Shown in pieces: positions 1-60,114 of a DNA stretch of 64,000 nt (position 1 is the stretch's first letter; every line of letters starts with the position of its first letter). The stretch spans positions 1 through 64,000 of the forward strand of contig MU271334.1 in the NCBI GenBank assembly GCA_021432655.1, in the 5' to 3' direction. The stretch is from Atractiella rhizophila (lineage: Eukaryota). Position numbers and translations under genes: made by a program. Below the pieces are notes generated by a model. That model made no database searches. It saw only the letters and a program-made list of their open reading frames with translations, and was not told the origin of the DNA.

Positions 1-283
1 TATTCATTCTCTGCCCTTCTCGCTTCAACCTTTGTTTCGGTGTGACAACTTGAGCATGATTCTCATCGTTGATTTGGGAAACAGGAGGAGCTCGTGAAGC
101 ATATTGGAGGGAAGCGGATGCATCGCGCCGTGAGGAGGAGGGCTTAGGGAGGCTGCTTGTTGTCTGTGGGATACCCAGGAGATACCTGCTGTGGAATAGA
201 TCCTTGCTCTCGGGAGTCCGCTGTCCTCCTTTGTTAGAGGCTTCATCGATCAATGAGTTCGAAAGATGGGAAACGACATTCAT
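1..283 (-). CDS. 5' end of a hypothetical gene running off the window (MNVVSHLSNSLIDEASNKGG..., Ser/Pro-rich, open to position 1)
   Basis: Uninterrupted minus-strand frame from ATG at 283 to the window edge; TATA-like sequence near 421-428. No family recognised. Confidence 0.3.
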   Translation of the reverse strand, partial: MNVVSHLSNSLIDEASNKGGQRTPESKDLFHSRYLLGIPQTTSSLPKPSSSRRDASASLQYASRAPPVSQINDENHAQVVTPKQRLKREGQRMN

Positions 284-458
284 TCACTTTCCCCTAAGGT
301 GCAGGGGTGGAGATAACAACATACACTGTTGTCCTTCACCGCTGGCAACGCAAGTTCAATTCAGGAAATCGCCTGCTGTATCCAGTCAGATCCAGTGCTG
401 CAGAGTGCGGTGCTCCTTGCTTATATACTCTCTTAGCAAAGAGCAAAAGGTTGTTGAC

Positions 459-538
459 TTCGGAGGATTAATGTCGACCGCGTGGTAAACATAGATGAAT
501 GTAAACAGATGTAAACAAACTGATTTGTGGTATATATA
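459..538 (+). promoter_or_regulatory. Conserved upstream module of ncRNA copy 1: TTCGGAGGATTAAT, GTCGACCGCGTGG, 3x GTAAACA, ATTTGTGG, TATATATA
   Basis: The same motifs occur in the same order upstream of the copy at 9240-9325 (-); most recur at 8760-8820 (-) and the proximal ones at 13330-13399 (+). Confidence 0.6.
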
Positions 539-564
539 CTGGGTTCAATAGTTACTTTTCGTGC

Positions 565-674
565 AAACACCGTTCTGCGTTCTTGGCTCAATGGTTACCA
601 CCTCGGAGGCCGTTCGCCATGGCGTTGGGGCCCCAACTAGCCATGGGTTCGGAGCACCGTCTGGTCACTTTTTT
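565..674 (+). ncRNA. Putative Pol III structured ncRNA, copy 1 (divergent variant); 5' end approximate
   Basis: TATA 531-538; A box TGGCTCAATGG 584-594; B-box-like GGTTCGGAGC 646-655; T6 at 669-674; long hairpin 594-668; homologous to 9103-9212 and 13426-13535. Confidence 0.65.
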
Positions 675-1145
675 CACCTTACTCAGCGAGACAACTACAA
701 CCAAACACTGCTTTACTCTCTGTTTGCACCTCTTTCCTCTGAAAATTTGCATTTTATTGGGCTATAGAACAGGTTAATGAATCCAGTCGGCTCAAATCTA
801 ATTATGGCACTTTGCTGGCGGAATTTTGTATACACATTCGTGACCGAGACATGGGCAGCTGCACGCCTGCAAATGTAGTATACTAGAAGGCTGAGAGAAA
901 CTTTCTTTTTCTTTGTAACAATGGAGGGAAACTAGAATTGAGTTTACCTTGCAGCAGAGCAGAAGAGAGGAAACAATGATGAACACGCTGTCATCATGAA
1001 GCCATCTTTCTTCGCAGCTCCCCGACACGCAATGCGACATCCATCTATCCATCCAACTTAGGTATTTCTCTTGCGTTAGTTTCTCCAGGGAACATACCGA
1101 TAGCATTGTTAGGTGCAAGAACAATAATATGAATACAGACTGAAC

Positions 1146-3092
1146 TCAGACCTTTCGATCAGGCTTGATAACCTCCCACGTTCCACTCTCCTCTCCTTCT
1201 GCTGTGTCCAAAAGTGAAGAGTTACTTGACTTCCGCGTAAGTTTGGGCTCACTGACACCCAGATTATGTCGTGATATTGGAGCAGGGGGAGGGACATGAT
1301 CTTTCTTCACCCGTCGTGGCATGTTGCTCCGCAAGAAAGCAACATCCCACGGATTTGAGACGGCTGGATTCCGCGAGGAGAGCTCTTCGGCAGTAGGAAA
1401 ATAGGAAGAGATATCAACTCCATCCCACCATGCTTGCTGATCGTCACTTGGGGGTGGCACTAGAAATCAACTGTGAGAATCGAGATCATGTCCTCGGGGG
1501 GTTGGGAGCGTGCCATCAAATACCGCAAGATCCTTAAAGTCTTCTAGGTTATCGTACGAGTCTTCTATTCCTTGTGCTTTAGCTGCCAGAATAACAGATT
1601 GGTCTTGCTGCAACTTTGCGATAAGGGCTGCCTTCTTCTGAACATCAATCGTTCTCACGGAGGCCCTGAATTGGCCGTAAACTGCGAACAGGATGAACAT
1701 CACTCGTCAGACCGACAAACAGACATACCCGGTCGATGATCCGACTGGTAAAGCTTCGCCGTTGTGTACTTCCAAATGTCTAACTCACGACCTCGGTAAA
1801 ATATTCGGTCTGTCCAGGCTGGGATCCTTTGCTTCTCGCTGGTGTCATATACCTCTGTTCCCCTTCAAAACCTTGAATTGCAATCATAGAGGAAGTGCAA
1901 TGACTGACTGGTCATATTTGTATGTAGGACGAAAGGTAATCGGGGCCTCGGCATAGCCCGCAAAAACGTTACGCGTAGCCATAGATAGTCTCAACTGTTA
2001 AGAGCATTCATTGATGACTTTGCGGTGAGCTACTGGCGTACCTGGTCTCCTTGTAGCAAGCTGTCATAATCATCTGCTTCTGCCAGCATGCGAACTTCCT
2101 CGTTTTGCAGCGATATGCGATAGTTGAAGTCGCCCAGCCAAATTACATTGCTTCGACCACGAAGATCAGTTCGGTAGTTACAATACAAACGTAAGGCTTA
2201 CTCATGAGTGTCAATTCGACGTCCACGCTGGAATTTCAGCTCGCTTGAAATGGTGAAGTAGTCCCGGTTTCGCTCTTCCACAGCAGAATGTCCAGCGGCG
2301 AAGTGCGCAGTGATGAAGCAGAACGACGTATCACGAAAGTCAAGGCGAATGGCCACCGCTCCTTTATTCCCTGTGACACCTTTGAAGCCAGTCTACACGC
2401 ATTTCGGTTAACTTGCGAGAGGATTAATATCGGCACCATTACCTTTTTCGTTGTGGCCTCAACGTTGCGAATGTCGTGTGCCACCGAACTCTTCACCAGA
2501 ATGATCAGAGCCGTTCCCACAAGTTGTTCCGAACGAAGGATGAAGTATGAGCTCTTGTGTTCTTCACGCTCCGCCAAATTCTGCATGATGAATTGTTCCC
2601 ATCGTCGCCTGTTCTGTCATCAGTTCCGCCGTTGATGAAGGGACGGGAATTGCATGCTTTTTTTCCGGGTCAGTAGCCATGATCTGTTGGGGTGAGAGTT
2701 CAACGATCTCCTGAAAACCTAATACCAAGAGCTCGGGCTCGATTGATGGGTCTGGAAAGAAGAAGGGGAGAAGAGATTCCGAGCCTGGTGGCCGGCCGCA
2801 GAGATTGTAAGTTCCCACCCAAAGAGTCAAATCCTGTGAGGTAGAATACTCGGCTATTCGTTCAGCGACAAGATCACGAAGGTAGTCGTGATGAGGATCG
2901 AAGATGAGGACCTTTTGCTGGTCGGGAAGATTACCCTGAAAGGCTCTTTCAGCAGGCGTAACTTGAAAGTGATCAGCGTACGAGCAGAGCATCTATCGCC
3001 ATTTGCTTATTCCCGTCGACGAAGTTGCTGATGTACATTCTTCCCACTCGCTTTGTTGCATCGGAAAGGAAGCCTGGTCGAAATTGAATTCT
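1146..3092 (-). CDS. Synaptojanin-like inositol polyphosphate 5-phosphatase (Inp51/52/53 family), 3' part only; 5' part lost at the gap
   Basis: End of Sac1 region (GRMYISNFVDGNKQMAIDALL), then 5-phosphatase motifs WVGTYNL, LVLGFQEIVELSPQQI, SEQLVG, GNKGAVAIR, WLGDFNYR, PTYKYD, SDHRPV-like; multi-exon. Confidence 0.9.
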
Positions 3093-3268
3093 NNNNNNNN
3101 NNNNNNNNNNNNNNNNNNNNNNNNNNNNNNNNNNNNNNNNNNNNNNNNNNNNNNNNNNNNNNNNNNNNNNNNNNNNNNNNNNNNNNNNNNNNNNNNNNNN
3201 NNNNNNNNNNNNNNNNNNNNNNNNNNNNNNNNNNNNNNNNNNNNNNNNNNNNNNNNNNNNNNNNNNNN
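3093..3268. other. Assembly gap (176 N)
   Basis: Run of N. Confidence 1.
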
Positions 3269-5975
3269 ACTCAGCTTCACCTACCTTACGACTAAGAAGA
3301 GCCACGACCTACGAATCCATCACCAGCTCGACTATCTACCTCCGCACTTACCTCCAGCCTCCTACAACCCGTTGTTCTTCTATCTCCCGACAAACCCCTA
3401 CCAGTTCCAGCCCCTACCACGCAATGCAGTAAGGAGGAAACGATACTAGAACACCCTAACGCAAACAGAGCAACCTTCTCGAAACACTTCAGAAGTCGAC
3501 TTCTCCGCCTACGGAGTTACTCCGATGGAAAGACCCCTTCCAACTGGCACGCTAGAGAATGTCTCTCTCTCTCTCTAACCGACACAGATACTGTCGAGTT
3601 CCAAAGAGTAAAGTAGGGACGTGAGATTTGCTAGGTCTTGGAGAGTTCAAGAAACAGCTTTTCAAATGTACACACACACAACAGCTTCAGGCAAGTTCCA
3701 CCTAATGGAAAGTGGCGTCAGCGAAAATAACGAAGTAAAAGAATCACGGCTTCGTTACCTCTATGTCAAACAATTTATAACTCGAACAAGAAGATAAGTA
3801 TGTAACACTTACCTTCGCCACGGAAACAAGGTGGTAATCGAGCTTTGAAAGGGTTCGAGTGAAGCACATCCGCATGAGACAAGAAACGAGACAAATTTCG
3901 CAGGTACAGGTTGAAGAACTAGGCGAAAGAGACGCATATATAGACACAAAGAACTCCTTTGAAAAGTTAATCCTGGAGTGTACTTGTGAAAGCGTCTCTT
4001 ACAAGACAGTGATTGCTAGAACGCCGTCTATATAAGGAACGAGAACACTGTTCACGACGTCGAAACTCAAGGGTGTAGCTTGGGTAAAGGGCTTAGCAGC
4101 GGCAGCTGAAGCAGACAAACTGTAGACGCTTGACCCTACCGGAAAGAAGGAAACTGGTTAGCTGGCTGAGCCTAATGCTGCTGCCAGTTGGAAGTTGCCG
4201 TCTTGTAGGGACGAGATCGAACTCCTTCTATAACTGGTTACCGGTTAAAATAAAGAGGAGGCGCAAGCTGGACAGTTGAGCTGACCTTCGCGCTTAGGAC
4301 TCCGTGAGATTCAGTTTAGTAGTGCGTCTACTCTTTGTGTAAGAAGGACTACCTCTCCTAGCCTGACCACGCTCTCCCCCTTGTGCCACCTGTTATGCTG
4401 CTCTCTAAAAACACCTTAAAAAAGAACCAACTATCAAACAACTCCAAATCCCTACCTGACCTCTGCCGATTCTTCCTCCGCAAGCTGTTCAGACCTAAAA
4501 ACCATACATGTAGTCAGACGTAGTAAAAGACCGATTGAACCCTAGTCTAAGAATAGTAAGTTCCTAAGACGAGGCAAAAGCTATAGTTACACCCTCCGTG
4601 TCGTACGTGATAGTCAGAGTATAGAGCTGATAGGATGTTTGCTCGTCCCTGTTCCATGTTGAGGTCTCCCCAACTGCACGCAATCAGTGCTGAGACTTGT
4701 TTGGAAGCGATTACCTCTCCCGTCCTGCTACCATTACATCGTTTAAAACAACTTTGTCTTTGGGATAAGTCTTGTGGCCTGGATACGAACTCAATACAAG
4801 TTCCGCTCAGCAAGGACCTGGTTACAGTTGCGTGGACTAGACTGAGGTATCAATCCCCTTCACACGGACATAAAACCCATCCGTAGGAAAGGGAGTCTTC
4901 CTAGGGGGAGTCTTAGGGAGGTCCTTGTTTCGCGAGGTCCGGAACCTCCCCAACAACCCCCACCTGAACGGCCGAACCCAGGTCGTTTACACGCGTAGTG
5001 AGCCGGCGAGTAACGACCAGCCTCTCGGAAGCTCGTTGTGAAGTACCTGGAAGAGCTTTGGATGCTTGCCCAAGTGCCTAACTTAGACGAGCCCTGAGCC
5101 CCTTCCACTTCCACGTGAGAGCTTGCGCATAGTTCTTGTATAGGAGCTGAAGTAGGCATTAGCTCGACGTTTGCAAGTGCTGCTTCTCTTCTGACTAGGA
5201 TGACCAACCGTAGTTATTGCAACGTCTACTACGAGGTCATAGGGAGTGCGTGAAACTAAAAGTAAGGGCACACGCGAGACCTCCCTACCTTGTTCACGCT
5301 CTAGTCGACTACTCGGGACTCAAAGGCCAGTTCCTGCTCTCGCTTTACATACCCATGACGAATCGCTCGCCCGACGGCCCGCTCCTCCTGAATCACTACT
5401 TCGTTGCCCCTCACAAAGCTTCGTTAACGAACCTAACCAAGCGGAAAAGTAAAGGAAAGAACAACGGGACGAGTTACTAGTGCATCAGAACTGTCTTGTT
5501 TGCAGCATGTCCTATACGAAAGCGCCGTTCGAGACCTCGTAAAGGAGTAGTTGACGTTAGGCTGCACCCGAATGAGGCTACGCTAGACCAGTTGCGTAGC
5601 GTGTAACACCCGGCTTCACTCGCTGTAAAAACAAGCACTACTTTGAGTAGAGTGACTGTAAAGATCTTACCTCTGCGTGAAAGAGCGTAGATACGACCAT
5701 GCCCCCGGGATTTATGGTCGAAGTGGGCCTGCCCTTTTTTCTGCGAACCTCCAGTCAAATAGAAAAGCACCGAGCCACAGTACAGCCTCCGAGATGACAC
5801 GGAGAAAAGAAGCACGGATGGGGAAGCAGACCTGAGGCGCCCTTGACTCCTGCGGCGGTAAAGAGAACTTGAGAGCAGTAAGAGTGTGAGGGGAGAAGAG
5901 GGTGAGACTGCGCGGCTGAGCATGGGAGTACAGGGAGAGCGACATTCTGCTGTCACAGCGGAAGGGACGTGTCAG
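3269..5975. mobile_element. Degenerate, compositionally distinct island (ApT-poor, TpA-rich), probably a decayed repeat or mobile element of unidentified class
   Basis: Only short ORFs (up to ~160 aa) with no recognisable domain; strong dinucleotide skew with a sharp boundary near 5970-6000; abuts a gap. No transposase/RT motif, LTR or TIR recognised. Confidence 0.35.
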
Positions 5976-6323
5976 GATATCTTTGACCAGAGTTCAAATT
6001 ATCGACGATATGATCCTTGCTTGGGTCGGTTGCGATAATCAGATGCTTGAATATGAAGCTTTGAAGTTGCAAGTCGCGATCTACTCAAACTTAAAATCCC
6101 TTGTGTAATATCTCCCTAACTTGGAGATCGCGTCTTGGTGTTGTTGTTGTGGAACTTTCTTTTAAGGGGCGTCAAGAGCAGCATATATAAAGGACCAATG
6201 ATCCCATCAGCTCAAACCACCCACTTGAATCCCCAAATCTACGTTCAAAGAACGTCCAAAGGTCAGCCTGCCTCACCTTGATACAGTATTTGTCCTGATT
6301 CTGTATTCGACCAGCGTTTCGAG

Positions 6324-8170
6324 ATGTCTGTCCACGGAATTCAGCTCTTCAGCTTTCTTGCTACCGACGGGTCAGGGACGCAGAGAATTCTTAGCCGTCA
6401 CAAGCTGGTCGTGCTTGTGCCCCAACATCATCCGTTAGGAGATCAAGAGCTTCGCTTCCAATGCCCCTTTCGAACCTGCACCTCACGGCTGTCGCTGTCC
6501 CAACATACAAAATTGCGCGACCATTTCAAGAAATGTCATCCATCGCAGAAGGTTACCTTTTTCGACGCTCGCAGAGTAGGGAAGGCATATTTTGAGTACG
6601 CTTGCTCTCCTTATCTACTTGCTGATTCACTCGTCGTTGAAGCGAGGATGGCATCGAATACGAGCTTGGAGACAATGATTCCTTCTATCGCGTCGATGGA
6701 ATCATCGGGGAAAAACGATTCACCATCGAAACCGTCGAAGAAGAAGAGGAAACTCTTCCCTGGTATGTCTCTCTGCTCTCATTCTCTCTCCCTCTGAACA
6801 ATAGTAACTGTCGTGTAGGGACTTCTCTCGTTTAGAAGGTGCCGTTATACGCCCCATCCCATCGTCCTCGGCGCCGTCCTCGCGCTCGCCTTCACCAATT
6901 CCTCCACCTTCCCCTGAAGAGTTTCAAGGATCCGACTACGAGGATCTTTCGGAAGACACCTCCTCTGAGTCCTCTGAGTCCTCTGCCTCCTTATCTTCCC
7001 ATCCCGTTGCAGATGAGCTCGACCCGTTCGATCGTTCCACTATATCGTCTGGAGAAGAATCGTCATCCGAATCTTCAGAAGAGGCTGGTTCTATCCAGAA
7101 GTCCCCAAAGAAGGAGTCAACTCCCTTAGAGATCCTAACCGCTGCGAATGGCGGGCCTCTATTCCGTCCACCGTCACCATCGCCAGATGCAGATGATGAA
7201 ACAGTTCTTGAATCCACCTTGGTCAAGAATGAAAGCGACCACTCCGACGCCGAATTCCCCCCAGTCGACGAGCAGGCCAATCCCGGAAAGGTCTTCTACC
7301 TTACGCTTTCCAACTCCTCTGGCAAAATTCTTCGTCATAAGCAGACGGCTCAGCGACTAGTCCACGTCTGCTCTGACCAATCCGGTCGACCGGTCGACTT
7401 CTCGTGCCCAATTTCGAGCTGTCGTTTTGTTGCGACGAGGATATATAAGGCGAGAATTCATCTTGAAAATGAGCATGCGAACGTGCTGAGCATCATTGCT
7501 CATCCCCAGAGTGGCACGGACCTATACTTTCGGGTGTTTGTTTTCCTAGTAGCATTCTCCTCTCCAACTTACTGAAAGCATTTTTGCAGGTTTCCGGATG
7601 GTGTCCGAAGGCAATTGGATTATGAAAAGAGAAGATTTTGGATGGTAGACGGAGAAGAGAAGCAATATCGCATCGAGTCGGAGTCGGAGGAGAAGGAACC
7701 CCTGATATGGTGAGCAATTCCTTGTGCACAAGTCCATGAACGCCGCGCTCAAAAACCATATGGATAGGGATGGATGGGGAAGTAGGATCTTGGCTGACAA
7801 GGGCACAGTGGGCGCTGTTCGCCGGTTGAAGCGTCAACGTCAGTCAACCGCCTCATCCAATTCCTCCATGCAGCCTTCCCTATCACCCCAACGGCACACC
7901 CCTGCTCCACCTGACCAACGTACAGTGGCCGACCTGGAGGCGTTATCACGGACCGTAGCACGTCTCCGGAAAGAAGAAGAGGAACTTTTCCTGAAGGCTT
8001 TTCCCTATCAGGTCAAGCTTCTGGAAATTCAAATTGCGGAGCAAAAGGAGATTCAACAGCAACTGCTGAAGAAACTCTATCCGAAAAAGGACGAAGAAGA
8101 TCGACAGTGGCGCGAAGCACTCAAGCAATTGAGAGCCCGTCGTTCCAATAATGCGCCTGCAGAAAATTGA
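6324..8170 (+). CDS. Zn-finger module family gene A: two C2H2-containing EPLxW modules, acidic Ser/Pro linker, C-terminal coiled coil
   Basis: FQCPFRTC...LRDHFKKCH and FSCPISSC...RIHLENEH; spliced tails ...VDGIIGEKRFTIETVEEEEETLPW and ...MVDGEEKQYRIESESEEKEPLIW; TATA ~6185; coiled coil ~7930-8140. Confidence 0.7.
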
Positions 8171-8664
8171 TGTCGATTAATGGCAATACGAGCCAGTTTT
8201 TTTCTTGTCGAGAGTTACTCCTGTTGCAGTAATTCTTTCTACTCTCACTTTGGCGTGTTGTCTTCCTAAAGACTCCAAACTTGACAGTCTGAACAATTTT
8301 CAGTTTGCATTTTTATTGTAAAAAAATTAGTATACAGTAGTGTAACATAAAAACTATAGGGCTACTTGATTTGTATTATGAAAGATGACTGTTTTCTTGG
8401 GCAATTTCGAGCTTGTCATCTGCCCACTCGTCTATCTGAAGGCTCCACTTAATTCCCCAATCCAATTCCTTCGGGCAGTGCACATTTCAAAGCTCCATCG
8501 CAGTTGGCCATCGCGTCAATGAAGAACGTGGAGAGGACGCCTAGGTACCCAATCGAACGACCCAGTCAACGAAGATCGAATGAAGCACCACGGCAGAACG
8601 AACATTTCCGAGAAGCTTGAAATGGATTCAAGCTTCAAGTGCATTCCAGTATGGAAAGAAAGAA

Positions 8665-8826
8665 CAACATCCACGCCAACGCCTTGCAAGGGCGGTAATC
8701 ATTGATGCAAGAACGCAGAATCGTGTTCGCACGAAAATAACATGGTGTGGAACCCAGAATACACACCACAAAATCGGTTTGTTAACTGATTACAGGCAAT
8801 CCCATCATTAATCCTCCGAAGGTCAC
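8665..8826 (-). pseudogene. Decayed, 3'-truncated fourth copy of the putative Pol III ncRNA gene, including its upstream module
   Basis: Reverse complement reads ttcggaggattaat...aaaccgattttgtggtgtgtattctgggttc...ttcgtgcgaacacgattctgcgttcttgcatcaatgattaccgcc, aligning to 459-602. TATA and A box are mutated; the hairpin, B box and T6 are absent. Confidence 0.65.
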
Positions 8827-9102
8827 CTCAAGCGAGAGCGATTGTAATAAGCAACGCAGGCTGAGAGCTGAACTATGCAGTGTTGCTTCTACGATGATAT
8901 TAGTTTACCGTATTTTGTTACTGTAACTACTTGGACTGAAAGAGGAAGTAAAATGTGAGATTGTCACATGAGCCTCTGTCTTAATACTTCGCTTACGAGT
9001 CCTTTCAGAGAAGAGAAAGATGTCAGGTTGAATTGACAAAAGAGAAGCAAAGGGGAAAGAATATCAATGGCTGGGTTTGTTTGGTTGTAGTTGTCATGGG
9101 TG

Positions 9103-9212
9103 AAAAAAGAGACGAGACGGTGCTCCGAACCCAGGACTCGTTGGGGCCCCCGAGGACTGGCGAACGGCTTCCGAGTCGTCTACCACTGAGCCAAGAACGC
9201 AGAATGGTGCAT
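9103..9212 (-). ncRNA. Putative Pol III structured ncRNA, copy 2
   Basis: Exact reverse complement of copy 3 over the whole unit; A6 at 9103-9108 is the terminator. Confidence 0.65.
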
Positions 9213-10264
9213 CGTGTAAAATATACTGCAGAACCATCTATATATACCACAAAAATTGGTTTGTTTGTGCCTGTTTACACTGATTTACATTAGCCACGCG
9301 GTCGACGGTCGATTAATCTTCCGAATTCAACCATCCAGCCAAGCGTCCAGAGTCCAGAGTAATGTAACGTTGCTAAACACACTCCTGTGAGTAAATAGCG
9401 TGTAGCGCTAATCGGCGTCCTCTTTCTCGTTGCTTTCAGCGAAAACTCTATGTAAATTACTTTGGATTAGCTAGACCTACTCTCTGCCATACATGTGGAT
9501 ATCTTTTTTAAGAAATATAAACGAGAAACAACTACTAAGCGACTGGTCTGTTAGGAATGAAGGGAATCGGGCAAAAATTAAAGGGTGAAAGAGAATGGAA
9601 GAGGAGATCGGAGCGAGACCGTGCGAAAACCATGCGATGGTGGAGTCAATGGAAAGGAGTCCCGTCCATCACCCGCACCTTCAGCCTAACATTCACCTAA
9701 ATCAACTGCCTTAAAACCCCCCACCATACTCTGATTAGAGCGCAATGGATGTGGAATAGTCAATCGACGGAGAATATGTGCATGAAACACGGCGGGTAAA
9801 TTTGGATTACAAGCATGCCAATACTCATCCAGGTGGACTCGACCTGGTGTAAGAGTCGGAAGATGTGCAGTCAATCACCCGACACTCTCGTTGACTTTGT
9901 CAGGCTTACTATAATTATAACCACGAAATCCAAAGGGATGACGAGGTGGAAATAAGAAGCAGTTAGACCACCAGGAGTGGGATGAATAGATAGAAGTATT
10001 CGAAGAAGCGACTAGTGGATGGAGAGCGTTTTCGTTCTCCCAAAGACAAGGCTCTGCCTTCAGTTTACCAAGATAACATAGAATTCTGTACATAAAGATG
10101 TACGACAACAGACGACAAAACAAAAATGCCAAATAAGATGGACACGGGTCTGAACTTCGAAATATTACTAGACATCACTTGTAAGGCCTTGTCATCTCAA
10201 GGGAGATTTGACTCTCTTAGACCCTCATCAGTTTATTGCTCAACAAATGACCCTTCACTTACAA

Positions 10265-12972
10265 TCATACGATCGTCCAGTCCGACATCACCAAATCGAT
10301 TGTCAGTCCGCGTTTTCGTAGATCCATTTGAAGTTTCCGAGCTGTTGCTTGTTCCTGAGCTAAGGTTTCGTTAAGGTGAGTCAACCGTTGCCCCATGACT
10401 AGGCGGTTCTGGGATGGGGTAGCAAAGACATCGACTGGAAGATGACTACATCCATCTAGGACGTATTTGCTGCGATTCATTGATTTTCTGAGATCCTCCT
10501 TCTCTTGCACAAGCTTATCGCAGGCTGACACCTGGGCAAGCGTGAGAGGGATCTGGGGAGAGGCGATGACTGCGTCGTAGAGGTTACAAAGTAGGTAGGG
10601 TTCTGGGAATATTCACTCACTCCGCTTTTTTACCGGCTGGCGATTTTCCTGTTTTCCCAAATCCAAAATCGTCGTAGAGATCGACGTGTGCTTCCCAAAT
10701 GTTTCAACAGCTCCACCGCATGTCAGCGCTTTATTGTTGGGATATGACGGACAACTGACATTTAAACGCTTTCAGTAGTTGCCCTTCTTTTCTCTCCTTT
10801 CTATTTCTCTCTAGGCTTGGCAAGCTTGGCAAGCTCAACCCCCTCTCAAGAAGTGGTGCATCAACGATATCAGTTGACCAATCTTTGAGTTCATGCGATC
10901 TGTTCCCAGGTGCGTTCAGTAAAATGTCGCCCCAGTCCGCCCTAGTTTGGCACGACTCTGTATCAGTCTTCATTCATGAATGGAAAGAACGCAACGGACC
11001 ACGGGAGGGGTTCCTGTGCTTCCACATCCGTTTCTTCCTCGTACATATCTTCTTCGGAGTCATCTGATCTCCAATACCTCTGCTTATTCGTATCGAACAA
11101 GTAGGACTTCTTGTCGCGGCTTTCCTCAAAGGCGTCAATCGTTCTGTCTACAAGATCGACGCAGAAGATGGGACGCACTCTTGTAAGCCTTCTAAAACAG
11201 GACTAGGGGCTTCCACAAATACGTCAAAGAGCGCTGCGTGTCTTTTTTTGAAGTGCCGCCGAATGTCACTAAGAGCATCGAATCGATCATTATCAAGTTT
11301 CCCGCACTCGCCAGTTGGGCATACGAATCGCAATGGAAGATCGGTATTCCTATCGACGTATGTGCCGAAGTAAACTTGACGACGACGGGAAGTCTTGTGT
11401 CGGAGGAACTGACCGGTCTCGCTCGATGCATAGGCAAGGACGAAGATGAAAGGATGTGAAAATGGAGCCCTTTGTGTCACGACATGACCCGTGATGTCAG
11501 TACCTTGTTGCCCCGAGATTTCTGGTTTCAATGTGGCGTCACTCTGAGTATTCGTAGAAATGTCGACTGGTGCATCCACTAGACGAGAGAGGCATGACGA
11601 TCTTTCTCCGGTTTGAAATCTCCTGGCAGATAGAGTGTTGGCAGGAAGAAGACTTGCTTGCGCCGACAGCGGGTCGCGGTTAGATTCGACTATTGAGAGG
11701 TTGTATTGGAGGGAAGATTGACTCGCTCTCGGTGCTTTCCGTGAAATATAATTTGAGGGTGAGGGGTGTGAGAAGGTGGATCTGCGAATAGGACTGGGTG
11801 TAACGGATCCCCTTTCCCCGTTCGCAAGCTCCGCCGCTGTTGTCCCAAAGGCTAAGTTGGCATTCGCAGGAGTTGTGACCGCGGATCTTAATATCCCATT
11901 AGGAGCAGCGAGTGCGGTTCCCGACTTTGCTGCTTGAAGGGATGTGTCCGATGTCGATCGCCGCCTCGTTTTATCTCCTCTGGGTAGTGAGTTAGTTTCG
12001 ACAGTCGTGTGACGGGCAGGGGTTAGGCAGATATCCAGCAGCTGGAACCTGGCAAACTCGTTCAGGACGGTAGGCACAAAGGGGAAAGACATACCAGTCC
12101 GGCTGTACAAATTTGGCAGCATTTGGTTCCACAAATTTACGAGGATCGACCTTTCCGATGCCTCTCCAAAACGACGATTCATCGTGTTCGTATGTCTCAT
12201 GCACACTGTCCGTAACCCCGCCTATCACGTCAGTTCTCTAAATCCAAAGAAGGGGCAGCAAACAGAATTGTCTGCGTGTTGGAAAAGGAAGATTCCTCCC
12301 TGCTGCGAAAAACAAGAAAGGGGATAGGATTTGGAGGAAAACGACGTACTCGGTGATGCATCCATGTCCTCCGATATTTCGCATTACATTCAACTCCTGC
12401 GAGTGCCGCGATTGGAAATGCAACTCTACAGCTGCGATCCTCAGGATCGGTGACACATTTTCGCACTGGACGAATGGACATATGAACGGATACTCTAGGT
12501 GTTCACTCCAGTCGGAAGAATGAATTGCGATAAGTGGTCGGAGAAGATTCCTCGAAAGAAGCGGCACCCTCGCATTCGCGTTCTTCTTGAAGATTAGAAA
12601 GCGAAGCTTTGGGGCGACCGGCGTGGAGACGGGGAACACTGGTTCGCTTCGACTGGCAGGGAGGGAATTGCCTATGTTGTCTTCTCCTTGATTCTTTTGG
12701 CATACAGAAAGACGGCGAGAGTAGAGATGTTTGTTCCCTAATAGTAGCTCTCTTGATTGGGACGAGATCGATGGGTCTCGGGTGGACGATCGGGATGCAT
12801 CCTTGTCATCAACACTCGCTGTTGGCAAGGAGCTGCCCACGCGGAGAGATCAACATTGGCATTACAAAGCACAAAGCACGAGGGAAAGAAGGACCAACTT
12901 TCGCGTTTCGCAGTTAGTCCGCGTCCCATTCTGGTTAGCGTTACTGAAGGAATCCTCGTCCTGACTGCCCAT
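10265..12972 (-). CDS. Zn-finger module family gene B: two modules plus C-terminal coiled coil
   Basis: FICPFVQC...ELHFQSRH with tail ...FVQPDW; AYASSETGQFLRHKTSRRRQVY...FVCPTGEC...IRRHFKKRH with tail ...YEEETDVEAQEPLPW; coiled-coil exons 10265-10531; start inferred at ATG 12972. Confidence 0.7.
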
Positions 12973-13425
12973 ATCGGTTACAAAGAAGGCTAGATGGTTA
13001 TACCAATGATACGTCTACTAGGAGGAAGTAACAAGAAAGGCCGATAGATCAAACCACGAAAAGACTGAAAAAACGACTGAACGTTGACTGGGAACTGTTT
13101 GAAACGGCTGTTTGGGGGGAGAAAATGGAGAAGAGGGTCTTTTTATACGCGCCATGTTGTCTGCGTTGTGGCGTGGGAAAGTGACGTGACTCTATACAAT
13201 TGATACTCTGCAACGTAATTGCTAGATAACTCCAAGCATAGCTTCATTATTATCCAATGTCAGACTATATGGCACCCAGTGAGCGAAATGAGGGTTTTTG
13301 AACTGAACATTGATAAAAAGAGATCCCACAGTGGTTTATACAGAAAACAGATACAAACATGTAAATAGGTATAAACAAACCAATTTTGTGGTATATATAG
13401 ATGGTTCTGCAGTATATTTTACACG

Positions 13426-13535
13426 ATGCACCATTCTGCGTTCTTGGCTCAGTGGTAGACGACTCGGAAGCCGTTCGCCAGTCCTCGGGGGCCCCAACGA
13501 GTCCTGGGTTCGGAGCACCGTCTCGTCTCTTTTTT
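13426..13535 (+). ncRNA. Putative Pol III structured ncRNA, copy 3
   Basis: TATA 13392-13399; A box TGGCTCAGTGG 13445-13455; GGTTCGGAGC 13507-13516; T6 13530-13535; hairpin 13457-13528. Confidence 0.65.
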
Positions 13536-14329
13536 CACCCATGACAACTACAACCAAACAAATTGGCAGTCCTTTTATTTTCTGTCTTTCCTTTCAAAGT
13601 TACATGCTATACGGCTGTAAAATGACTTCAATCAATACAAGCGCCTTAGGTTTTATGTGGGACGATACACAAGTTGCTTGGTGATTGATATCAAGTGGAG
13701 AATAGCTGCAAACGATGCCTTTTTCAACACCCGTCAATACCACTATTATTATGGAAGATATAATGTATTTATCACAGTAAGCGGTACAGAAAACAATACA
13801 GGAGAGGAAGAGAATGAACTTAGAGAAGAAACGCAGAGGCTTCAGAAGTCTATACAACATCTGATATGTGCTGCTGCTTTGATCAGACATACAATACTCA
13901 AATCGTCTGGACACCAATCTTTCTCATCTTAATATAGGCTGGAAGGGAAGCGCGAGCGAAATTGCATCTCTGTCCTCTACTCTTCCAGCGAGCGCTGAGG
14001 AGTAACAAACCAGACGCTCAAACACCGTGATGGTCTACAGAAGCAGAGCAAAATCTCGGCCTTCACGTAACGTTTCATCGTCGACTTCACCTAATACCTA
14101 TGCTTTGCCCCTCATATCTACTGTCCATTTCATCTGTCCTTAAGAAACAATGGATGAAGTTCGATGAAATCGCATTTCTAATCTTTGCTGTTGCAGGGTT
14201 GTTGCTCCCGATCTCCCGATCACTTGGCAATTGGCTCAATCGATCTGCTTGCATATCGACACGTTCATCTCCCTCTCCTGAGCTATCTCTTCGCTGAGCA
14301 GGTAACATACTCTTCCTAACACGCACACC

Positions 14330-15690
14330 ATGTCCTTCGTCCCTCTCCACTGTGGCGCTCAACAGTACGACTGGGGGAAGCTAGGTCCCTCTTCCAAGGT
14401 CGCACAATACGCTTCAGCATCCACTGGGCTCACCATCTCTTCATCTACGCCTTATGCTGAGCTGTGGATGGGCACCCACCCATCTCTCCCTTCGAAAGTG
14501 GCTACGACTGGTGAGAGCTTGAAGGAATATCTGGGCAAGAATCCGAAGTACCTGGGAGGCGGATTGAAGGATTTACCGTTCTTGTTCAAGGTGTTGAGCA
14601 TCGGCAAAGCTCTCAGTATTCAGGCTCATCCGGATAAGACGTTGGGAAAGAAGTTGCATGCTGAGCAGCCGAATATCTACAAAGATCCAAACCACAAGGT
14701 ATGCGTTTCTCCTCTCTACTTGGTCTTTGTACTGATGCTGACGATGGAACAGCCAGAAATGGCCATTGCCCTCACCCCTTTCTCCGCCTTCTGCGGCTTC
14801 CGACCACTCTCCCAAATCTCCTCCTTCCTCCAGACCGTTCGCGAGTTCTCCTCTCTCGCCAAACACTCCAAAGACAACTTCATCTCCGTTGCCTCCAACA
14901 CCTCATCCAGCGCCGCCGAACAGAAAGCGGCGTTGAAGGAGCTTTTTGGGGAGATCATGTCCGCTCCCGCTCAACAATTCATGCCAGCCATCAGGTGGTT
15001 GGTCGAGAGGTTGGAGAGCGAAGGAGTGCGGGTGAAGGAGGGAGAAGAGCCGAAGACGGAAGAAGAATTGGTACTCAGGTTAAATGAACAGTTTCCGGAT
15101 GACATTGGAATCCTTTGCACTTTCTTGCTCAATTGGGTGCATCTGAAACCTGGAGAAGCAATCTTCCTCAAAGCTAATGAGCCTCATGCTTATTTATCTG
15201 GAGGTGCGTTTTCCTTTCTCACCCTCAGAGCTCACGGACTCTAGCTAAGTGATGGATGTATAATATAGATATCATCGAATGCATGGCCACCTCCGACTCC
15301 GTCATCCGCGCTGGGCTGACTCCGAAACTACGAGACGTCCCCGTCCTCCTCTCCATGTTGACCTATACCACCCTTCCACCAGCCAGCCAACTCCTCTCTC
15401 CTACCTCTCCCTCCTTCGCAAAGAACGGTCACTCCAAGCTCTACGATCCTCCGATCGACGAGTTCAGCGTTGTAGCGGTTACATTGAGGAAGGGAGAAGA
15501 GGAGAAACATGATGGAGTGGAGGGACCAAGTGTGATTATTGTTACCGCGGGTGGAGGGGAGATCAAAGGGCAGAAGACGAAAGAGGGAGATGTATGGTTC
15601 GTAGCTGCAGGGGAAGAAGTGCATTTCAAAGCTGGAGAGAAGCTGGAGCTCTATAGAGCTTTCGTTGTCGGCTTCAAAGAGGACGAGTAG
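14330..15690 (+). CDS. PMI40: Mannose-6-phosphate isomerase (class I)
   Basis: QYDWGK, PYAELWMGTHPS, LPFLFKVLSIGKALSIQAHPDK, YKDPNHK|PEMAIAL, ANEPHAYLSG, ECMATSD; two introns. Confidence 0.96.
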
Positions 15691-15975
15691 ATTGACGGTC
15701 AAATATCGTGGTTCAAAACACAGGAGGATGCAATAAAAGGAAAATGATTGAATGCTTACATTGTTCTCAATTCGTGCAAATGCTCAATGGCTCAATGCTG
15801 TCAGTACTTTCAGGATGTGGATACAGTAAAAGACAATAGATCATTCTTCAAATTATCGCCGTATCAGTTTAAAGCAGAATACTGCAGAACGCATCACTTT
15901 TAATCTCCATCTTCCTAATTCCTGAATTGATAAATGTCTCAGTAGCTCAGCAAGCGAAACTCAAACTCTCAGATC

Positions 15976-18975
15976 TCACAAAGGATTTGGAGCCGGTGAG
16001 ACAGCATCTTCCCTCCCTGCCAACCTCCTGTGCAAATCCCTAATAGTTCCATCTCTGACCCTAACCTCATCCTCCAACCTCGTCCTCTCCCTCTCCCACC
16101 CGTCCCTCTCGCCTTCCAAAGCCTTCAACTGCTCAGCCAGTTCCTCATTTCTCTGCCTCAGTTCTGCCAGCTCTGACTCTTGCGCGGCAGTCGAAACTGT
16201 AACCCGCCCATTAACAACTCTTTGGGGGATAGAGGAAAGGGACGTACATCGTTTCCTTTTCAGTGGTGGCAGACTCGATGTTCCCTCCCCTTGATCATAC
16301 ATTATTGGGCTCCCGTTCGCATCCACCATTTGCGGAACCTGTCCGGGAATGAGAGAAGGCGGCCTCTTCCTCTTTGGCATCATATCGGCGGGAAGGCGGT
16401 CGCGACCTTTCATGTCTTCGTTGGTCCAGTTTTGCCTACCCGCGTCATTCCACGCCTTAGCTGGCGAAGCATAGAAGTGTGCTAAACCTCACCATACCAA
16501 CGGTTCACGCGCTTCTTCTTCATTCTCGATCTCGTACATGTCTTCCTTTCCCCCACTTTTGACCTGCCAAAATACCTCTCCAGCACGGAAATCAAACACA
16601 TTGTTATCGCGACTGCCGCGGGCAGCAACACATCAGACTTTTTCTGGTCAAAGAGTCGAGAAGGCCACGCACTCCTTCAATCCAAGTTGTGGCGGATGCC
16701 TTGTCTCCTGCAACACGTCAAACAAATCGTGATGCTTGCCCCTAAAGTGGTGTCGAAGGAGCGGTATCCTCTCCCACGTCGCCTTGCTACACCTATGAAT
16801 GGGGCAGGTCAACCTCAGCACCTGGTTCTCAGGAACCGTTCCTCCAATGTAGACCAGACGTTTGCGAGTCGTTCGGTGTCGAAGGAGGTGTTGGCCAGTG
16901 TTGTCGGATGCGTAAGCACAGAAAAATATTTCCGGCGTCGCAGTCGGAAGCATTGGTTGGGAAGACGCGGAGAGTTGGGCTTGTGATGGGGTGTGAGGGG
17001 TGTGTGGATGGTTGGGATGGGTATGAGGTGCGGTAGAAGCAGAGGGGTAGGCGTCGGAAAGATTCATGGACATCGAGGGGTCGATGTGAGACTCATCATA
17101 AGGGTAGGTTTCTGTACCTGATATCAGCGACTTGGGCGACCAATGGAGAGAAAGAGGACGGCGGAACAGAGAGACGTACCAATCTGACCCAAAGCCATCT
17201 GTACCGTTCCATCTGACAAGCCTTTCTGTGCTGCCCCTCCACCCACATCCACCTTCTGTTCCCTCCCCTCATTGACACCGAGCTCCATGCGCACGTCGCT
17301 TTCTCCCTCTTCCCCTTCATCCTGCACCACCAAAATATCCTCTCCTTCTCTCATCACCACATCCCCGTCTCCATTCCTGTTCCGATCCCCGCTGCCACTC
17401 TGCTGCAGCCTCATTTGTCCGCGAGACGGCTGAGAGAATTCGGGATCAATGACGGAGTCTTCCATAGGCATGGACACATCCATCGATGTGTTTCCCAACA
17501 CTTCATCTTCGTACGCCTTGATCGCTGCAGGATTGATGGCTGTTGGTGCATCCCTGGAGATTTTGGGGCGATCGATGCGTTCGTTCGTTGTATGCCAGTT
17601 GAGCCTTTATCCCACCGAACAGAGCTGTGGTTAGTCGACGGATCACTCGGCAGATAAATGGGCTGAAAGCGACGGCGAAGCGGTACGTACCACGGTAGCG
17701 GGATCTCTGCCTCCTCGTCCGTCTCCTCCCTGTATATCTCCTCATCAAAACTCCCATCCCTCCTCCAAAACCCATCAAGAGCTGTATAAGTCTTTCCATC
17801 CACGCCAGTGACTGCGCTGTTGGCTCCACGTCCTCTCTTGAAGATTTCGAAAATGTCCCTATGCTCCGCCTCAAAGTGATCGACGGCTGTATGTCGATAA
17901 CTCAACAGCTTTGGTGGCTTTCCTTGCTCCTTACAAGCCGGACAGAAACGTTGATCCTTTCCAGCGCTTTTGAATTCGAAGAGATGAGGACGATGAGGCG
18001 ATTGGTGAATATGGAACGCAGACGACGAGACGGAGGAGTGCGAGCGAGCATGGCGCGGAAGAGGAGCATCTCGGTCTGGCTGACGTTCGAATGAACATTC
18101 GTCTGCGGTTGGTGCGCGCCAGTCATCACCACTTGTCCTCCATGGGCAGGTGCTGCTCCTTGACTTTGTCGCGGCGTCCCAACGACTCCAGACACAGAAA
18201 CAGGGACGTCGACTCCTCCGCCTCCACCTTCAATCCCAATATAGATCGCTTCCTCCGCATCCAGTCCTACTGTGGCGTACCCCGTCGAGTCTGAGGGTCC
18301 AATAACGAGGCTGTCATCCATTTGACCCTGTATCGGCTGAGACGGTCCAGAGTCGTCTGGCTGGAACTCGAACACTGTGTTTTCCCTGGTCCAACCTTCC
18401 TCAGCTCGAAGCGTTGGAACGAAATGAAGAACGCACCATGGAAGTGGCTCAGCTGCTTGTTCTTCTGTTTCTGGCACATAAAGCTCGGTGTCATAGGTAC
18501 CATCGACTCGTGCAAAGCATTCTCGCTCCTTGCCAAAGACGTAGGAGTGCTTGTCGGTCCTTTCCACCCAAAGAACAAAACTCAGCATCGTCTTTAACGC
18601 CACCACCTCCTAAGACCTCAGGGGAAAAATCACATACCCCGTCATAAGCTCTGCCCTGCCATTTGCCCTACTCCTACTGAAGAACTCCCAAGGTCCATCG
18701 GCATGTCTTTTCAAAAAGTGACTTTTGATATTCCCGTTGGTCCTGAACGTAAGATGGGTTCCACAACCGAAGGGACAGTTGAACGATATGGAACCAGAGA
18801 GATGTTTAGCCTTGAGAGGGACGTAGACTACGAGTTTGCCTTCTTTGGTTCTCAGTCTGGTCTCGCCCTGTTTGACATCGTGAGTAAATAATACGGGATC
18901 AGGAGGTTAGTGTGAGGTGCTGCTTACGGAAACGTCGGCGGACATGTACCAGAAGACTACCTGATTGCGTAGCAT
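15976..18975 (-). CDS. Zn-finger module family gene C: three modules plus C-terminal coiled coil; apparent frameshift in module 2; start uncertain
   Basis: NCPFGC...KSHFLKRH / ...EEQAAEPLPW; FCPAC...VDHFEAEH / ...EEAEIPLPW; AYASDNTGQHLLRHRTTRKRLVY...TCPIHRC...RHHFRGKH / ...EEEAREPLVW; coiled coil ELAELRQRNEELAEQLKALE... Confidence 0.7.
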
Positions 18976-54216: not shown

Positions 54217-54831
54217 GGTTGAGTGGAAATTTGGAGGAAGAGACTAGACAATAACTACAATTGTAGTCGTAGTCGGAGATGCCGAAATCTAATCTTCGAG
54301 GGCAGAATACGAGGAGGAAGTCATTGGTAGTCATGGCGAGCAGATAATGGTCCCTCAAAAGATGCAGTATTCTTGATACAGGTTGGTATCTCCTTGTGAG
54401 CGAACCTGGATGTCTTTCTGTCTGCAAAGTTTGTGCATTTATGGCAGCAGTAATTTGGGGAAGCCAGAAACGATCTGAAGACGATAATCCAAGAAAAGAT
54501 GGAGTGCGGTATTCTCAAATCCACTATCCCATAAAACATTTCTGTGATGGACGCTGGAGTTTTCGGCCTGATGCTCACTTAAACTTTACCTTTCCCATTC
54601 ACGCCATTCCATGTTTCGAGTGTTAGTAAAATAGCAAAGATTATTCCAAATCAAATCCATCACAATATAAATCAGAAACCATTGTATCAATTGGGTGTCC
54701 ATTTCTCGCAAAATTTTATTCTCCAAATTGGAGCTTCGATAACACTAAAATTGTTCAAGTGACCTTGACATCCATTGACATCCCATCCGATCATCAAACA
54801 GATCGCTCAGTGTCTTTCTAGTATGAAAATT

Positions 54832-60031: not shown

Positions 60032-60114
60032 GGTCGCTTATTTCAGTTGGTTAGAATGTGGACCTAATAAAAGTTCACAGTCCAAGGTCGGCGGTTCGAG
60101 CCCGCCAGTGACCA
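60032..60114 (+). tRNA. tRNA-Ile(AAT) with ~9-nt intron (60070-60078)
   Basis: Acceptor GGTCGCT/AGTGACC, anticodon stem TGGAC/GTCCA with CT-AAT-A loop, T arm GGCGG-TTCGAGC-CCGCC, discriminator A, downstream T6. Confidence 0.88.

What the first reader, a model, noticed from the sequence alone, without database searches (positions are those of the whole stretch)
565..674. Candidate undescribed Pol III ncRNA family (4 copies) with covariation-supported rod structure
Seen: the same ~110-nt unit occurs at 565-674(+), 9103-9212(-), 13426-13535(+) and, decayed, at ~8665-8826(-). Each intact copy has a TATA ~53 nt before a canonical A box (TGGCTCARTGG), a B-box-like GGTTCGGAGC and a T6 run. It does not fold as a cloverleaf. 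Instead 594-668 forms one long irregular hairpin: P1 GTtACCA/TGGTcAC, CGG/CCG, an internal loop, CCG/CGG, a UU/UU mismatch, CCATGGC/GCCATGG and a GGGGCCCC cap. In copies 2 and 3, P1 is AGACGA/TCGTCT and the upper stems are CCAG/CTGG and CTCG/CGAG. Most differences between the variants fall in paired arms and include at least three compensatory pairs (U-A to A-U, C-G to G-C, U-A to G-C), while the internal loops stay nearly invariant. Known: TATA + A/B box + oligo-T is the Pol III type-2/hybrid layout used by tRNA, vault, VA and some fungal milRNA precursors. Inference: this is a selected structured RNA that I cannot assign to a known family. Caveat: the B box has G at the normally invariant A position.
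Basis: partly seen in the sequence, partly recalled or inferred. Interest (0 to 1): 0.85.

Follow-up and report, generated by a model that had tools for sequence, protein, structure and literature searches.

The report
Low-copy Pol III-like hairpin RNA genes
A fungal genome region holds three intact copies and one decayed copy of a roughly 255-base cassette that looks like a small RNA gene descended from a tRNA gene and folding into a hairpin rod, but whether it is expressed, and what it does, has not been tested.

Summary
There are three intact copies and one decayed copy. Each intact copy has TATATATA 53 nt before an A box, a B-box-like motif, a T6 run and a 75-nt irregular hairpin. The repeated unit is longer than reported. 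It is a discrete cassette of about 255 bp, including about 130 bp upstream and an invariant 18-mer beyond the T6.

It is not a tRNA and matches no Rfam family. It is not a SINE: contig depth indicates about 4 intact copies per genome, and I found no target-site duplications.

"Covariation-supported" is overstated. Copies 2 and 3 are identical in the RNA part, so only two distinct sequences exist. Only 2 of 30 column pairs are strictly compensatory, and two helices are re-registered. However, the letters at the 17 variable sites are fitted to the hairpin far better than permuted arrangements (19 and 7 of 3000 permutations reach the observed energy). The reverse strand folds equally well.

No RNA data and no homologues outside close relatives could be obtained.

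Best reading, at about 0.45: a lineage-restricted, tRNA-derived Pol III small-RNA gene family. Relic, DNA-level palindrome and Pol II readings remain open.

The parts
453..707 (+). Copy 1, the whole repeated cassette (about 255 bp)
   Evidence: Local alignment to copy 2: 453-707 against 9331-9078, 203 of 244 aligned columns identical (alignment)
485..517 (+). Three GTAAACA motifs upstream in copy 1 (485-491, 501-507, 511-517). They look like forkhead sites, but that label is recalled, not tested. Related motifs occur in copies 2-4.
   Evidence: Sequence read; alignments
531..538 (+). TATATATA, 53 nt before the A box. The surrounding TTTGTGGTATATATA is identical in copies 1-3.
565..674 (+). Putative RNA of copy 1. 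The start is inferred (about 30 nt after the TATA), not shown.
   Evidence: MFE -38.9 kcal/mol: a 5' hairpin (569-574/590-595) plus the rod
584..594 (+). A-box match TGGCTCAATGG (TGGCTCAGTGG in copies 2 and 3)
594..668 (+). 75-nt irregular hairpin (rod)
   Evidence: -31.3 kcal/mol; retention tests
646..656 (+). B-box-like GGTTCGGAGCA. It has 2 mismatches to the recalled consensus, including G at the usually invariant A. It is identical in copies 1-3.
669..674 (+). T6 run, 12 nt after the B box
690..707 (+). GACAACTACAACCAAACA, 18 of 18 identical in copies 1-3. It lies beyond the T6, and all pairwise homologies end sharply here.
9078..9331 (-). Copy 2 cassette: TATA 9246-9239, A box 9193-9183, B box 9131-9121, T6 9108-9103, putative RNA 9212-9103
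13360..13562 (+). Copy 3: TATA 13392-13399, A box 13445-13455, B box 13507-13517, T6 13530-13535. It matches copy 2 in 200 of 203 aligned columns. Its farther upstream part (about 13300-13359) is only weakly alike.
   Evidence: (I2)
8691..8830 (-). Copy 4, decayed. Upstream region and leader are kept, the A box has 3 substitutions (TTGCATCAATGA), and there is no B box or T6. Its surviving 5' arms resemble copy 1.
   Evidence: 84 of 99 columns identical to copy 1; 7.2 bits, E 9.7

Best explanation
This is a low-copy, lineage-restricted family of small gene cassettes that descend from a tRNA gene and are still built like a Pol III gene.

Inferred mechanism (no step has been shown experimentally):
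- TFIIIC binds the internal A box and B-box-like motif.
- The upstream TATA fixes the start about 30 nt downstream, near 561-565.
- Pol III stops in the T6 run, giving an RNA of about 105-110 nt with a U tail.
- This RNA has lost the cloverleaf. It folds into a short 5' hairpin with the A box in its loop, followed by a 75-nt irregular rod.
- The inner helices, internal loops and the GGGGCCCCAAC apex of the rod are invariant. Its two outer variable helices (P1 and the upper stem) have been rewritten in the copy 2/3 lineage with pairing restored.

The most likely role is a small stable RNP RNA, in the manner of vault, Y or VA-type rods, or a Pol III-made hairpin precursor of small RNAs.
For: Promoter layout:
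- The A box, B-box-like motif and T run sit in tRNA-like geometry (B box, 12 nt, then T6) at all 3 intact copies, and nowhere else in 64 kb. The generic scan gave 3 hits against a mean of 0.06 in 100 shuffles.
- Between the two variants, the A box is 10 of 11 identical, the B box 11 of 11, the T6 6 of 6 and the TATA 8 of 8, while the 115-nt RNA region as a whole is 91 of 115 identical.
- The decayed copy 4, which lost the 3' half, also has 3 substitutions in its A box.

Hairpin retention:
- 17 of 75 rod positions differ between the variants, yet both fold into the same rod at -31.3 and -31.0 kcal/mol.
- Random substitutions at the same sites reach that energy in 8 and 13 of 3000 trials.
- Permuting the observed letters among the 17 sites reaches it in 19 and 7 of 3000.
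- 16 of the 17 differences lie at positions that are paired in at least one variant (56 of 75 positions; P = 0.03).

Strand: in the 5' hairpin, two one-sided changes keep pairing through G-U. That only works on the + strand.

Copy number and context:
- Contig depth is about 979 against 359, and 855 against 294, for the copy 2/3 type. The copy 1 type is at single-copy depth.
- All copies are intergenic, and ORFs in 1-16000 resemble each other only where they overlap the units.
- Substitutions show no 3-base periodicity (positions listed).

Precedent: in Neurospora, Pol III transcription of hairpin precursors that end in T runs, dependent on TATA-like elements, is shown in passages of PMC3547838.
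Against: - No expression data: no listed sequencing run is RNA.
- There are only two distinct sequences. Strict covariation is seen at 2 of 30 pairs, 7 pairs are broken in the common register, and the covariation term is +1.01.
- Fold z-scores are only -1.2 to -1.6.
- The rod is entirely Watson-Crick, and the reverse strand folds as well (-29.8 and -32.4 kcal/mol). A DNA-level palindrome fits it equally.
- The B box carries G at the usually invariant A and A at a usually conserved C (consensus recalled).
- An 18-mer beyond the T6 is 18 of 18 conserved and all homologies end sharply there. A Pol III gene ending at the T6 does not explain this.
- The window's one true tRNA gene has no upstream TATA.
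- Differences in the arms are tightly clustered (6 of 8 adjacent positions). That could reflect complex mutational events rather than stepwise compensation.
- Close relatives add little. The difference-free zone in their contigs (550-745) extends 38 nt past the unit.
Confidence: 0.45

Rival explanations
1. Relic. The cassettes are dead or neutral copies of a tRNA-derived element, either a pseudogene cassette or an extinct small mobile element. The hairpin would be a DNA palindrome kept and rewritten by replication template switching or gene conversion, not by selection on an RNA.
For: - The rod is fully Watson-Crick and folds equally on both strands.
- The differences are clustered multi-base changes confined to the arms.
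- Copies 2 and 3 are homogenised over only about 203 bp, which shows that gene conversion or very recent copying acts here.
- One copy has already decayed.
- The unit has sharp shared ends, as a discrete inserted entity would.
- Template switching that creates and maintains hairpins with apparently compensatory changes is described in PMC8794818 (search listing and start of abstract only).
Against: - Both arms of both variable helices differ between the variants, so a single template switch does not explain them.
- The promoter motifs are invariant while the spacer between the TATA and the leader is about half changed.
- The A box decays only in the copy that lost its 3' half.
- No target-site duplication at 0 of 2 clearly bounded copies.
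- Low copy number.
Confidence: 0.25
2. Pol II module. The TATA box and the upstream GTAAACA motifs would form a Pol II promoter. The hairpin would lie in the 5' part of a longer non-coding Pol II transcript, or be a palindromic protein-binding site. The A/B-box resemblance would be ancestral baggage.
For: - The upstream region is strongly conserved, with three GTAAACA motifs and a perfect TATATATA.
- Conservation continues past the T6 to an invariant 18-mer.
- The real tRNA gene in the window has no TATA.
- The apex GGGGCCCC is an 8-bp DNA palindrome.
Against: - There is no consistent downstream ORF or shared downstream sequence. Homology stops at 707, 9078 and 13562.
- A box, B box and T6 in tRNA-like spacing is unlikely by chance.
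- The T6 is conserved in all 3 intact copies.
Confidence: 0.15
3. Solo LTRs, or fragments of another transposable element.
For: - The unit is discrete at about 255 bp and contains an internal TATA.
- Homology begins near a TG (TGTTGAC, TGGTTGA) and ends in CA (…CAAACA).
- Copies lie in both orientations within 13 kb.
Against: - No 5-bp target-site duplication at copies 1 and 2 (0 of 2).
- No reverse transcriptase, integrase or transposase domain in 66 ORFs of 1-14200.
- Depth indicates only about 1 and about 3 copies of the two types per genome.
- LTR origin gives no reason for tRNA-type A/B boxes and a T6 in correct spacing.
Confidence: 0.07

Closest known systems
tRNA genes (Pol III type 2)
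   Same: A box at the expected distance from a B-box-like motif. The 12 nt from the B box to the T run matches the span of T-stem plus acceptor strand. The D-loop-like GCTCAGTGGTAGA is present.
   Different: No cloverleaf and no acceptor or T stem. ARAGORN and the Rfam tRNA model are silent. A strong upstream TATA is present, which the window's real tRNA lacks.
Vault RNA, Y RNA and adenoviral VA RNA (small Pol III RNAs with a rod or panhandle shape)
   Same: About 100 nt, internal A and B boxes plus upstream elements including a TATA, a T-run terminator and a rod-like fold with conserved internal loops. The features of these families are recalled, not tested here.
   Different: No Rfam hit to Vault, Y_RNA or any other family, even at E up to 10. 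Here the 5' end does not pair with the 3' end. The presence of partner proteins (MVP, Ro) in this fungus could not be tested because no genome is held.
Neurospora Pol III-transcribed milRNA precursors (milR-1 to milR-4)
   Same: Fungal hairpin RNAs followed directly by a T cluster. TATA-like elements are needed for Pol III recruitment at milR-1. One precursor is tied to tRNAs (passages of PMC3547838).
   Different: By that paper milR-1 has no A or B box, and milR-4 sits between genuine tRNAs and needs RNase Z. Here the A/B boxes lie inside a non-tRNA fold. The rod has only about 25 pairs broken by many loops. No small-RNA data exist.
tRNA-derived SINEs (for example the AfuSINE2 families of Aspergillus fumigatus; PMC5063351, abstract only)
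   Same: A tRNA-related head with A and B boxes.
   Different: The upstream 130 bp is conserved between copies. A T6 directly follows the head. There is no tail and no target-site duplication. There are only about 4-5 copies.

Membership tests
tRNA | Cloverleaf with acceptor, D, anticodon and T arms | tested here: not met
   ARAGORN finds 1 tRNA in the window, at 60031-60116, and none at the copies. At a lowered threshold only calls with introns of 886 and 2772 nt overlap them. No Rfam tRNA hit at E up to 10 on 480-720.
Any Rfam 15 family (including Vault, Y_RNA, 7SL, U6, 5S, snoRNAs) | Score at or above the family's gathering threshold | tested here: not met
   0 matches in 64 kb at gathering thresholds. 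The only match at E up to 10 on 480-720 is snoR100, at 13.5 bits against a threshold of 50, on the opposite strand.
Pol III type 2 / hybrid gene | Internal A box and B box in correct spacing | tested here: inconclusive
   A box has 0-1 mismatch. B box has 2 mismatches, including the usually invariant A. Spacing is tRNA-like. 3 hits against 0.06 expected. The consensus motifs are recalled.
Pol III type 2 / hybrid gene | Oligo-T terminator just after the RNA | tested here: met
   T6 lies 12 nt after the B box in 3 of 3 intact copies.
Pol III type 2 / hybrid gene | Transcript made by Pol III, with Pol III/TFIIIC occupancy | not testable with these tools
   No RNA run is listed, and there are no ChIP data.
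SINE | Many dispersed copies, a LINE-related or A-rich tail, target-site duplications, and unrelated upstream flanks | tested here: not met
   Depth ratios are about 2.7-2.9 for the copy 2/3 type and 1 for copy 1. No 5-mer duplication at 0 of 2 copies. The upstream 130 bp is conserved between copies.
Structured RNA supported by covariation | Statistically significant compensatory changes across independent sequences | tested here: inconclusive
   Only 2 distinct sequences. 2 of 30 pairs changed on both sides, 7 broken in a common register, covariation term +1.01. However, 19 and 7 of 3000 permutations reach the observed energy.
Fungal milRNA precursor | Discrete small RNAs of about 19-25 nt from one arm; Dicer/Argonaute dependence | not testable with these tools
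   No small-RNA data are available.
Solo LTR | TG...CA ends, 4-6 bp target-site duplication, and related full-length elements | tested here: not met
   TG and CA near the ends are ambiguous. No duplication at 0 of 2 copies. No retroelement domains in 66 ORFs. Full-length elements elsewhere are not testable because no genome is held.

The most novel reading that the evidence does not exclude
This is an undescribed, basidiomycete-specific Pol III small RNA that evolved from a tRNA gene into a rod-shaped RNP or small-RNA precursor. Its two variable helices would be under diversifying change with pairing restored, carrying specificity, while the invariant loops and the GGGGCCCCAAC apex bind a protein. 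In addition, the near-identical inverted pair (copies 2 and 3) that brackets a 4.1-kb segment holding an orphan gene could act as TFIIIC-bound boundary or inversion sites.
Probability: 0.15. Interest if true: 0.65.

Novelty: new member of a known kind. Interest (0 to 1): 0.4.

Why it matters
If it is expressed, this would be a new fungal Pol III non-coding RNA family caught early in its history. It would show a tRNA gene that kept its promoter geometry but exchanged the cloverleaf for a rod, with paralogues showing how helices are rewritten while pairing is kept. Few Pol III RNAs beyond the universal set are known in fungi, and I found none in print for Pucciniomycotina (0 papers for the genus name with 'RNA polymerase III').

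If it is not expressed, it is a useful warning. Promoter-like motifs and a palindrome maintained at the DNA level can imitate a covarying RNA when only two sequences are compared.

Tried and rejected
- **Whole-genome search:** no genome is held for this window, so copies were counted only indirectly from contig depth.
- **Sequencing runs:** no RNA holder is listed. There were 3 DNA or unknown holders from at most 2 samples.
- **Contigs of close relatives:** the copy 1 orthologue in X1/X2 differs from the window at 6 substitutions (531, 532, 549, 746, 773, 789) and one insertion (behind 523). The X3 contig covers only 607-945 and has 9 substitutions, all from 746 onward. The difference-free zone also covers 38 nt of non-unit flank, so this says little about constraint.
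- **Collection scans for homologues:**
  - The A-box/B-box pattern gave 0 hits in metagenome contigs, 0 in prokaryote genome contigs and 0 in viral contigs.
  - The 18-mer leader-plus-A-box pattern gave 25 metagenome loci. On inspection, 0 of 25 share anything beyond the 18-mer.
- **Literature:**
  - The B-box 13-mer as a text term gave 0 papers.
  - Searches on Pol III, fungi and A/B boxes, milRNA and Pol III, the genus with Pol III (0 papers) and Pucciniomycotina with SINE turned up no description of such a family.
  - Supplements were not examined.
- **Protein-coding reading:** rejected. ORFs across the units are in different frames in the two variants, the substitutions have no codon periodicity, and the unit ORFs have no Pfam hit.
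- **Transposon with terminal inverted repeats (copies 2 and 3 as ends):** rejected. There is no transposase domain between them. The 357-aa ORF there is an orphan with a single relative. There are no flanking duplications.
- **DUF3435 lead for that ORF:** raised by the protein atlas (score 0.90 with 166 shared features, below the tool's own guide values). Pfam did not confirm it even at E up to 10.
- **Targets of the variable arms:** no 12-mer of either RNA variant occurs elsewhere in the window on either strand.

Full report
**1. What is in the sequence**

The reported unit is real.
- Reading the four places and aligning them shows three intact copies and one decayed copy.
- A covariance model built from the three intact copies and run over the whole window without filters gave these scores:
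  - 146.9, 146.9 and 122.1 bits for the three intact copies;
  - 12.1 bits (E 0.55) for the next-best match;
  - 7.2 bits (E 9.7) for the decayed copy.
- The window therefore holds no further copies.

- Local alignments put copy 1 at 453-707 against copy 2 at 9331-9078, with 203 of 244 aligned columns identical.
- Copy 2 against copy 3 is 9279-9076 versus 13360-13562, with 200 of 203 columns identical.
- The cassette of about 255 bp has three parts:
  - about 130 bp upstream of the A box, with three GTAAACA motifs in copy 1 and an invariant TTTGTGGTATATATA;
  - the putative RNA;
  - after the T6, CACC and an 18-mer, GACAACTACAACCAAACA, that is 18 of 18 identical in copies 1-3.
- All pairwise homologies stop abruptly after this 18-mer.

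**2. Promoter-like layout**

- In all three intact copies TATATATA starts 53 nt before TGGCTCARTGG.
- GGTTCGGAGCA follows 62 nt after the A-box start, and T6 begins 12 nt after the B box.
  - The scan found exactly these three sites.
  - 100 block-wise shuffles gave a mean of 0.06 and a maximum of 1.
- Two cautions apply:
  - The three sites are copies of each other.
  - The scan missed the window's one real tRNA gene, so it is specific but insensitive.
- The B box departs from the consensus at two positions, including the usually invariant A.
- Between the two variants the A box is 10 of 11 identical, and the B box, T6 and TATA are all identical. The 115-nt RNA region overall is 91 of 115 identical, and the stretch between TATA and leader is about half changed.
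- Copy 4 has lost everything 3' of about 8691. It also carries three substitutions in its A box.

**3. What it is not**

*Not a tRNA.*
- ARAGORN calls one tRNA in the window, at 60031-60116 (Ile-AAU with a 9-nt intron when introns are allowed). It calls nothing at the copies.

*Not a known RNA family.*
- Rfam 15 gives 0 matches at gathering thresholds in 64 kb.
- On 480-720 at E up to 10, the only match is a 13.5-bit snoR100 hit on the other strand.

*Not coding.*
- ORFs across the units sit in different frames in the two variants.
- The 17 rod substitutions fall 5, 6 and 6 in the three codon phases.
- Pfam finds nothing in those ORFs.

*Not a SINE.*
- In contigs of two DNA runs of the same organism, the copy 1 version has depth 359 and 294, the same as its unique flanks.
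- The 156-nt contig of the copy 2/3 version has depth 979 and 855, a ratio of 2.7-2.9. A copy 4-like contig is also present.
- That indicates about three copies of the copy 2/3 type, one more than the window shows, plus one copy of the copy 1 type.
- No 5-bp target-site duplication flanks copy 1 or copy 2 (0 of 2).

*Not part of a larger segmental duplication.*
- In an all-against-all comparison of ORFs from 1-16000, only ORFs overlapping the units match each other.

**4. The hairpin and the covariation claim**

- Against dinucleotide shuffles the fold is unremarkable, with z from -1.2 to -1.6 and 12-20 of 200 shuffles folding as well.
- Copies 2 and 3 are identical over the RNA, so there are only two sequences to compare.
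- In a column-wise consensus of 30 pairs:
  - 2 pairs changed on both sides with pairing kept (A-U to U-A in P1, G-C to U-A in the upper stem);
  - 2 pairs changed on one side through G-U, both in the 5' hairpin;
  - 7 pairs are broken in copy 1;
  - the covariation term is unfavourable, at +1.01.
- Copy 1 pairs P1 one position out of register with copies 2 and 3, and its apical helix two positions out of register.
- "Covariation-supported" is therefore too strong.

The hairpin is nevertheless retained beyond chance.
- 17 of 75 positions differ between the variants.
- Replacing the same 17 sites with random other bases reaches the observed energy in 8 of 3000 trials (copy 1 background) and 13 of 3000 (copy 2 background).
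- Permuting each variant's own 17 letters among those sites, which keeps composition, reaches it in 19 and 7 of 3000.
- 16 of the 17 differences lie at positions paired in at least one variant (56 of 75 positions; hypergeometric P = 0.03).
- Copy 4 shares copy 1's letters in the surviving 5' arms. The rewriting therefore probably happened in the copy 2/3 lineage.

Caveats on this result:
- Every rod pair is Watson-Crick.
- The reverse complement folds as well, at -29.8 and -32.4 kcal/mol.
- The changes are tightly clustered.
- A DNA-level palindrome maintained by template switching is a live alternative. That mechanism is described in PMC8794818, of which I saw only the search listing and the start of the abstract.
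- Only the two G-U-mediated changes in the 5' hairpin favour the + strand RNA specifically.

**5. Context**

- The window is fungal.
  - It carries housekeeping genes with short introns: phosphomannose isomerase at 14306-15687, a V-ATPase subunit, a kexin-like protease and Elp3-like domains.
  - The only relative of the 357-aa ORF between copies 2 and 3 is a 100%-identical 570-aa hypothetical protein. Its source name points to a basidiomycete of the Pucciniomycotina.
- All four copies are intergenic.
- Copies 2 and 3 form a divergent, near-identical inverted pair around 4.1 kb that holds this orphan gene.
- The real tRNA gene in the window has no TATA upstream.

**6. Homologues and expression**

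- No genome is held for the window.
- Pattern scans found nothing related:
  - metagenome contigs gave 0 hits with the two-box pattern, and 25 chance hits of which 0 were related with the 18-mer;
  - prokaryote genome contigs gave 0 hits;
  - viral contigs gave 0 hits.
- Three sequencing runs hold the stretch and none is RNA.
- Their contigs differ from the window by 1.5-2.7% in the flanks. The first differences appear only from 746 onward on the right and at 549 and below on the left.
- The unchanged zone also includes 38 nt outside the unit, so I do not count it as evidence of constraint.

**7. Interpretation**

*Leading reading, about 0.45.* A tRNA-derived Pol III gene family with an upstream TATA, making a U-tailed RNA of about 105-110 nt that folds as a 5' hairpin plus a rod.
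- Shown here: the motif layout and its conservation, the low copy number, the retention of the hairpin, and the absence from Rfam.
- Inferred: the polymerase, the start site, the termination at T6, and any function.
- The nearest functional analogies are rod-shaped Pol III RNAs (vault, Y, VA; their features are recalled) and Neurospora's Pol III-made milRNA precursors. In those, T clusters follow the hairpins and a TATA-like element recruits Pol III (passages of PMC3547838).
- Membership in any of these families is not supported.

*Rival readings.*
- A neutral relic with a DNA-maintained palindrome: 0.25.
- A Pol II promoter or ncRNA module: 0.15. The conserved 18-mer beyond the T6 and the GTAAACA motifs favour this.
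- A solo LTR or other transposable-element fragment: 0.07.

**8. Verdict**

- This is a real, non-chance, undescribed low-copy element with a coherent Pol III-like anatomy and a hairpin under some constraint.
- The evidence for a functional RNA is indirect. It rests on two sequences from one species group.
- Interest is moderate.

Noticed in passing
window 11151-12849 (-), between copies 2 and 3: This is an orphan gene. The 357-aa ORF is 100% identical to part of a 570-aa hypothetical protein, which is the only hit in the 5.8-billion-protein collection. This ORF and the adjacent 203-aa ORF each carry an F-x-C-P...C...H-F-x-x-R-H zinc-finger-like motif. The protein atlas gave a weak lead to DUF3435, which Pfam did not confirm.
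   Followed up: partly
window about 20116-24136 versus 48272-52382: A large diverged inverted duplication appears as a series of inverted-repeat arms, 72-91% complementary and about 24-32 kb apart (I1, I3, I4, I6-I12). ORFs in the left arm region have subtilase and Fn3-like hits. It looks like an inverted pair of paralogous genes.
   Followed up: no
window 54830-55061 and 56214-56445: A direct repeat of 232 nt, 72% identical, with 1384 nt spacing (D1).
   Followed up: no
window 60031-60116 (+): The only tRNA gene in the window is tRNA-Ile(AAU) with a 9-nt intron. Without intron handling it is called Tyr(ATA). It is followed by T5 and has no TATA upstream.
   Followed up: partly
runs X1/X2 laid on window 524-707: Contig depth indicates about three copies of the copy 2/3 variant, while the window holds two. 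One further copy probably lies elsewhere in the genome.
   Followed up: partly
window 374-439: In runs X1 and X2 a contig skips 64 nt (374 to 439) and has AGC in its place. This is an indel polymorphism, or an alternative haplotype, just upstream of copy 1 (tables 5 and 5c).
   Followed up: no
window 2239-2992 (-) and 3093-3268: A multi-exon gene with Exo_endo_phos2 (phosphatase/endonuclease family) matches lies on the minus strand next to copy 1. A run of 176 N at 3093-3268 interrupts the region.
   Followed up: no
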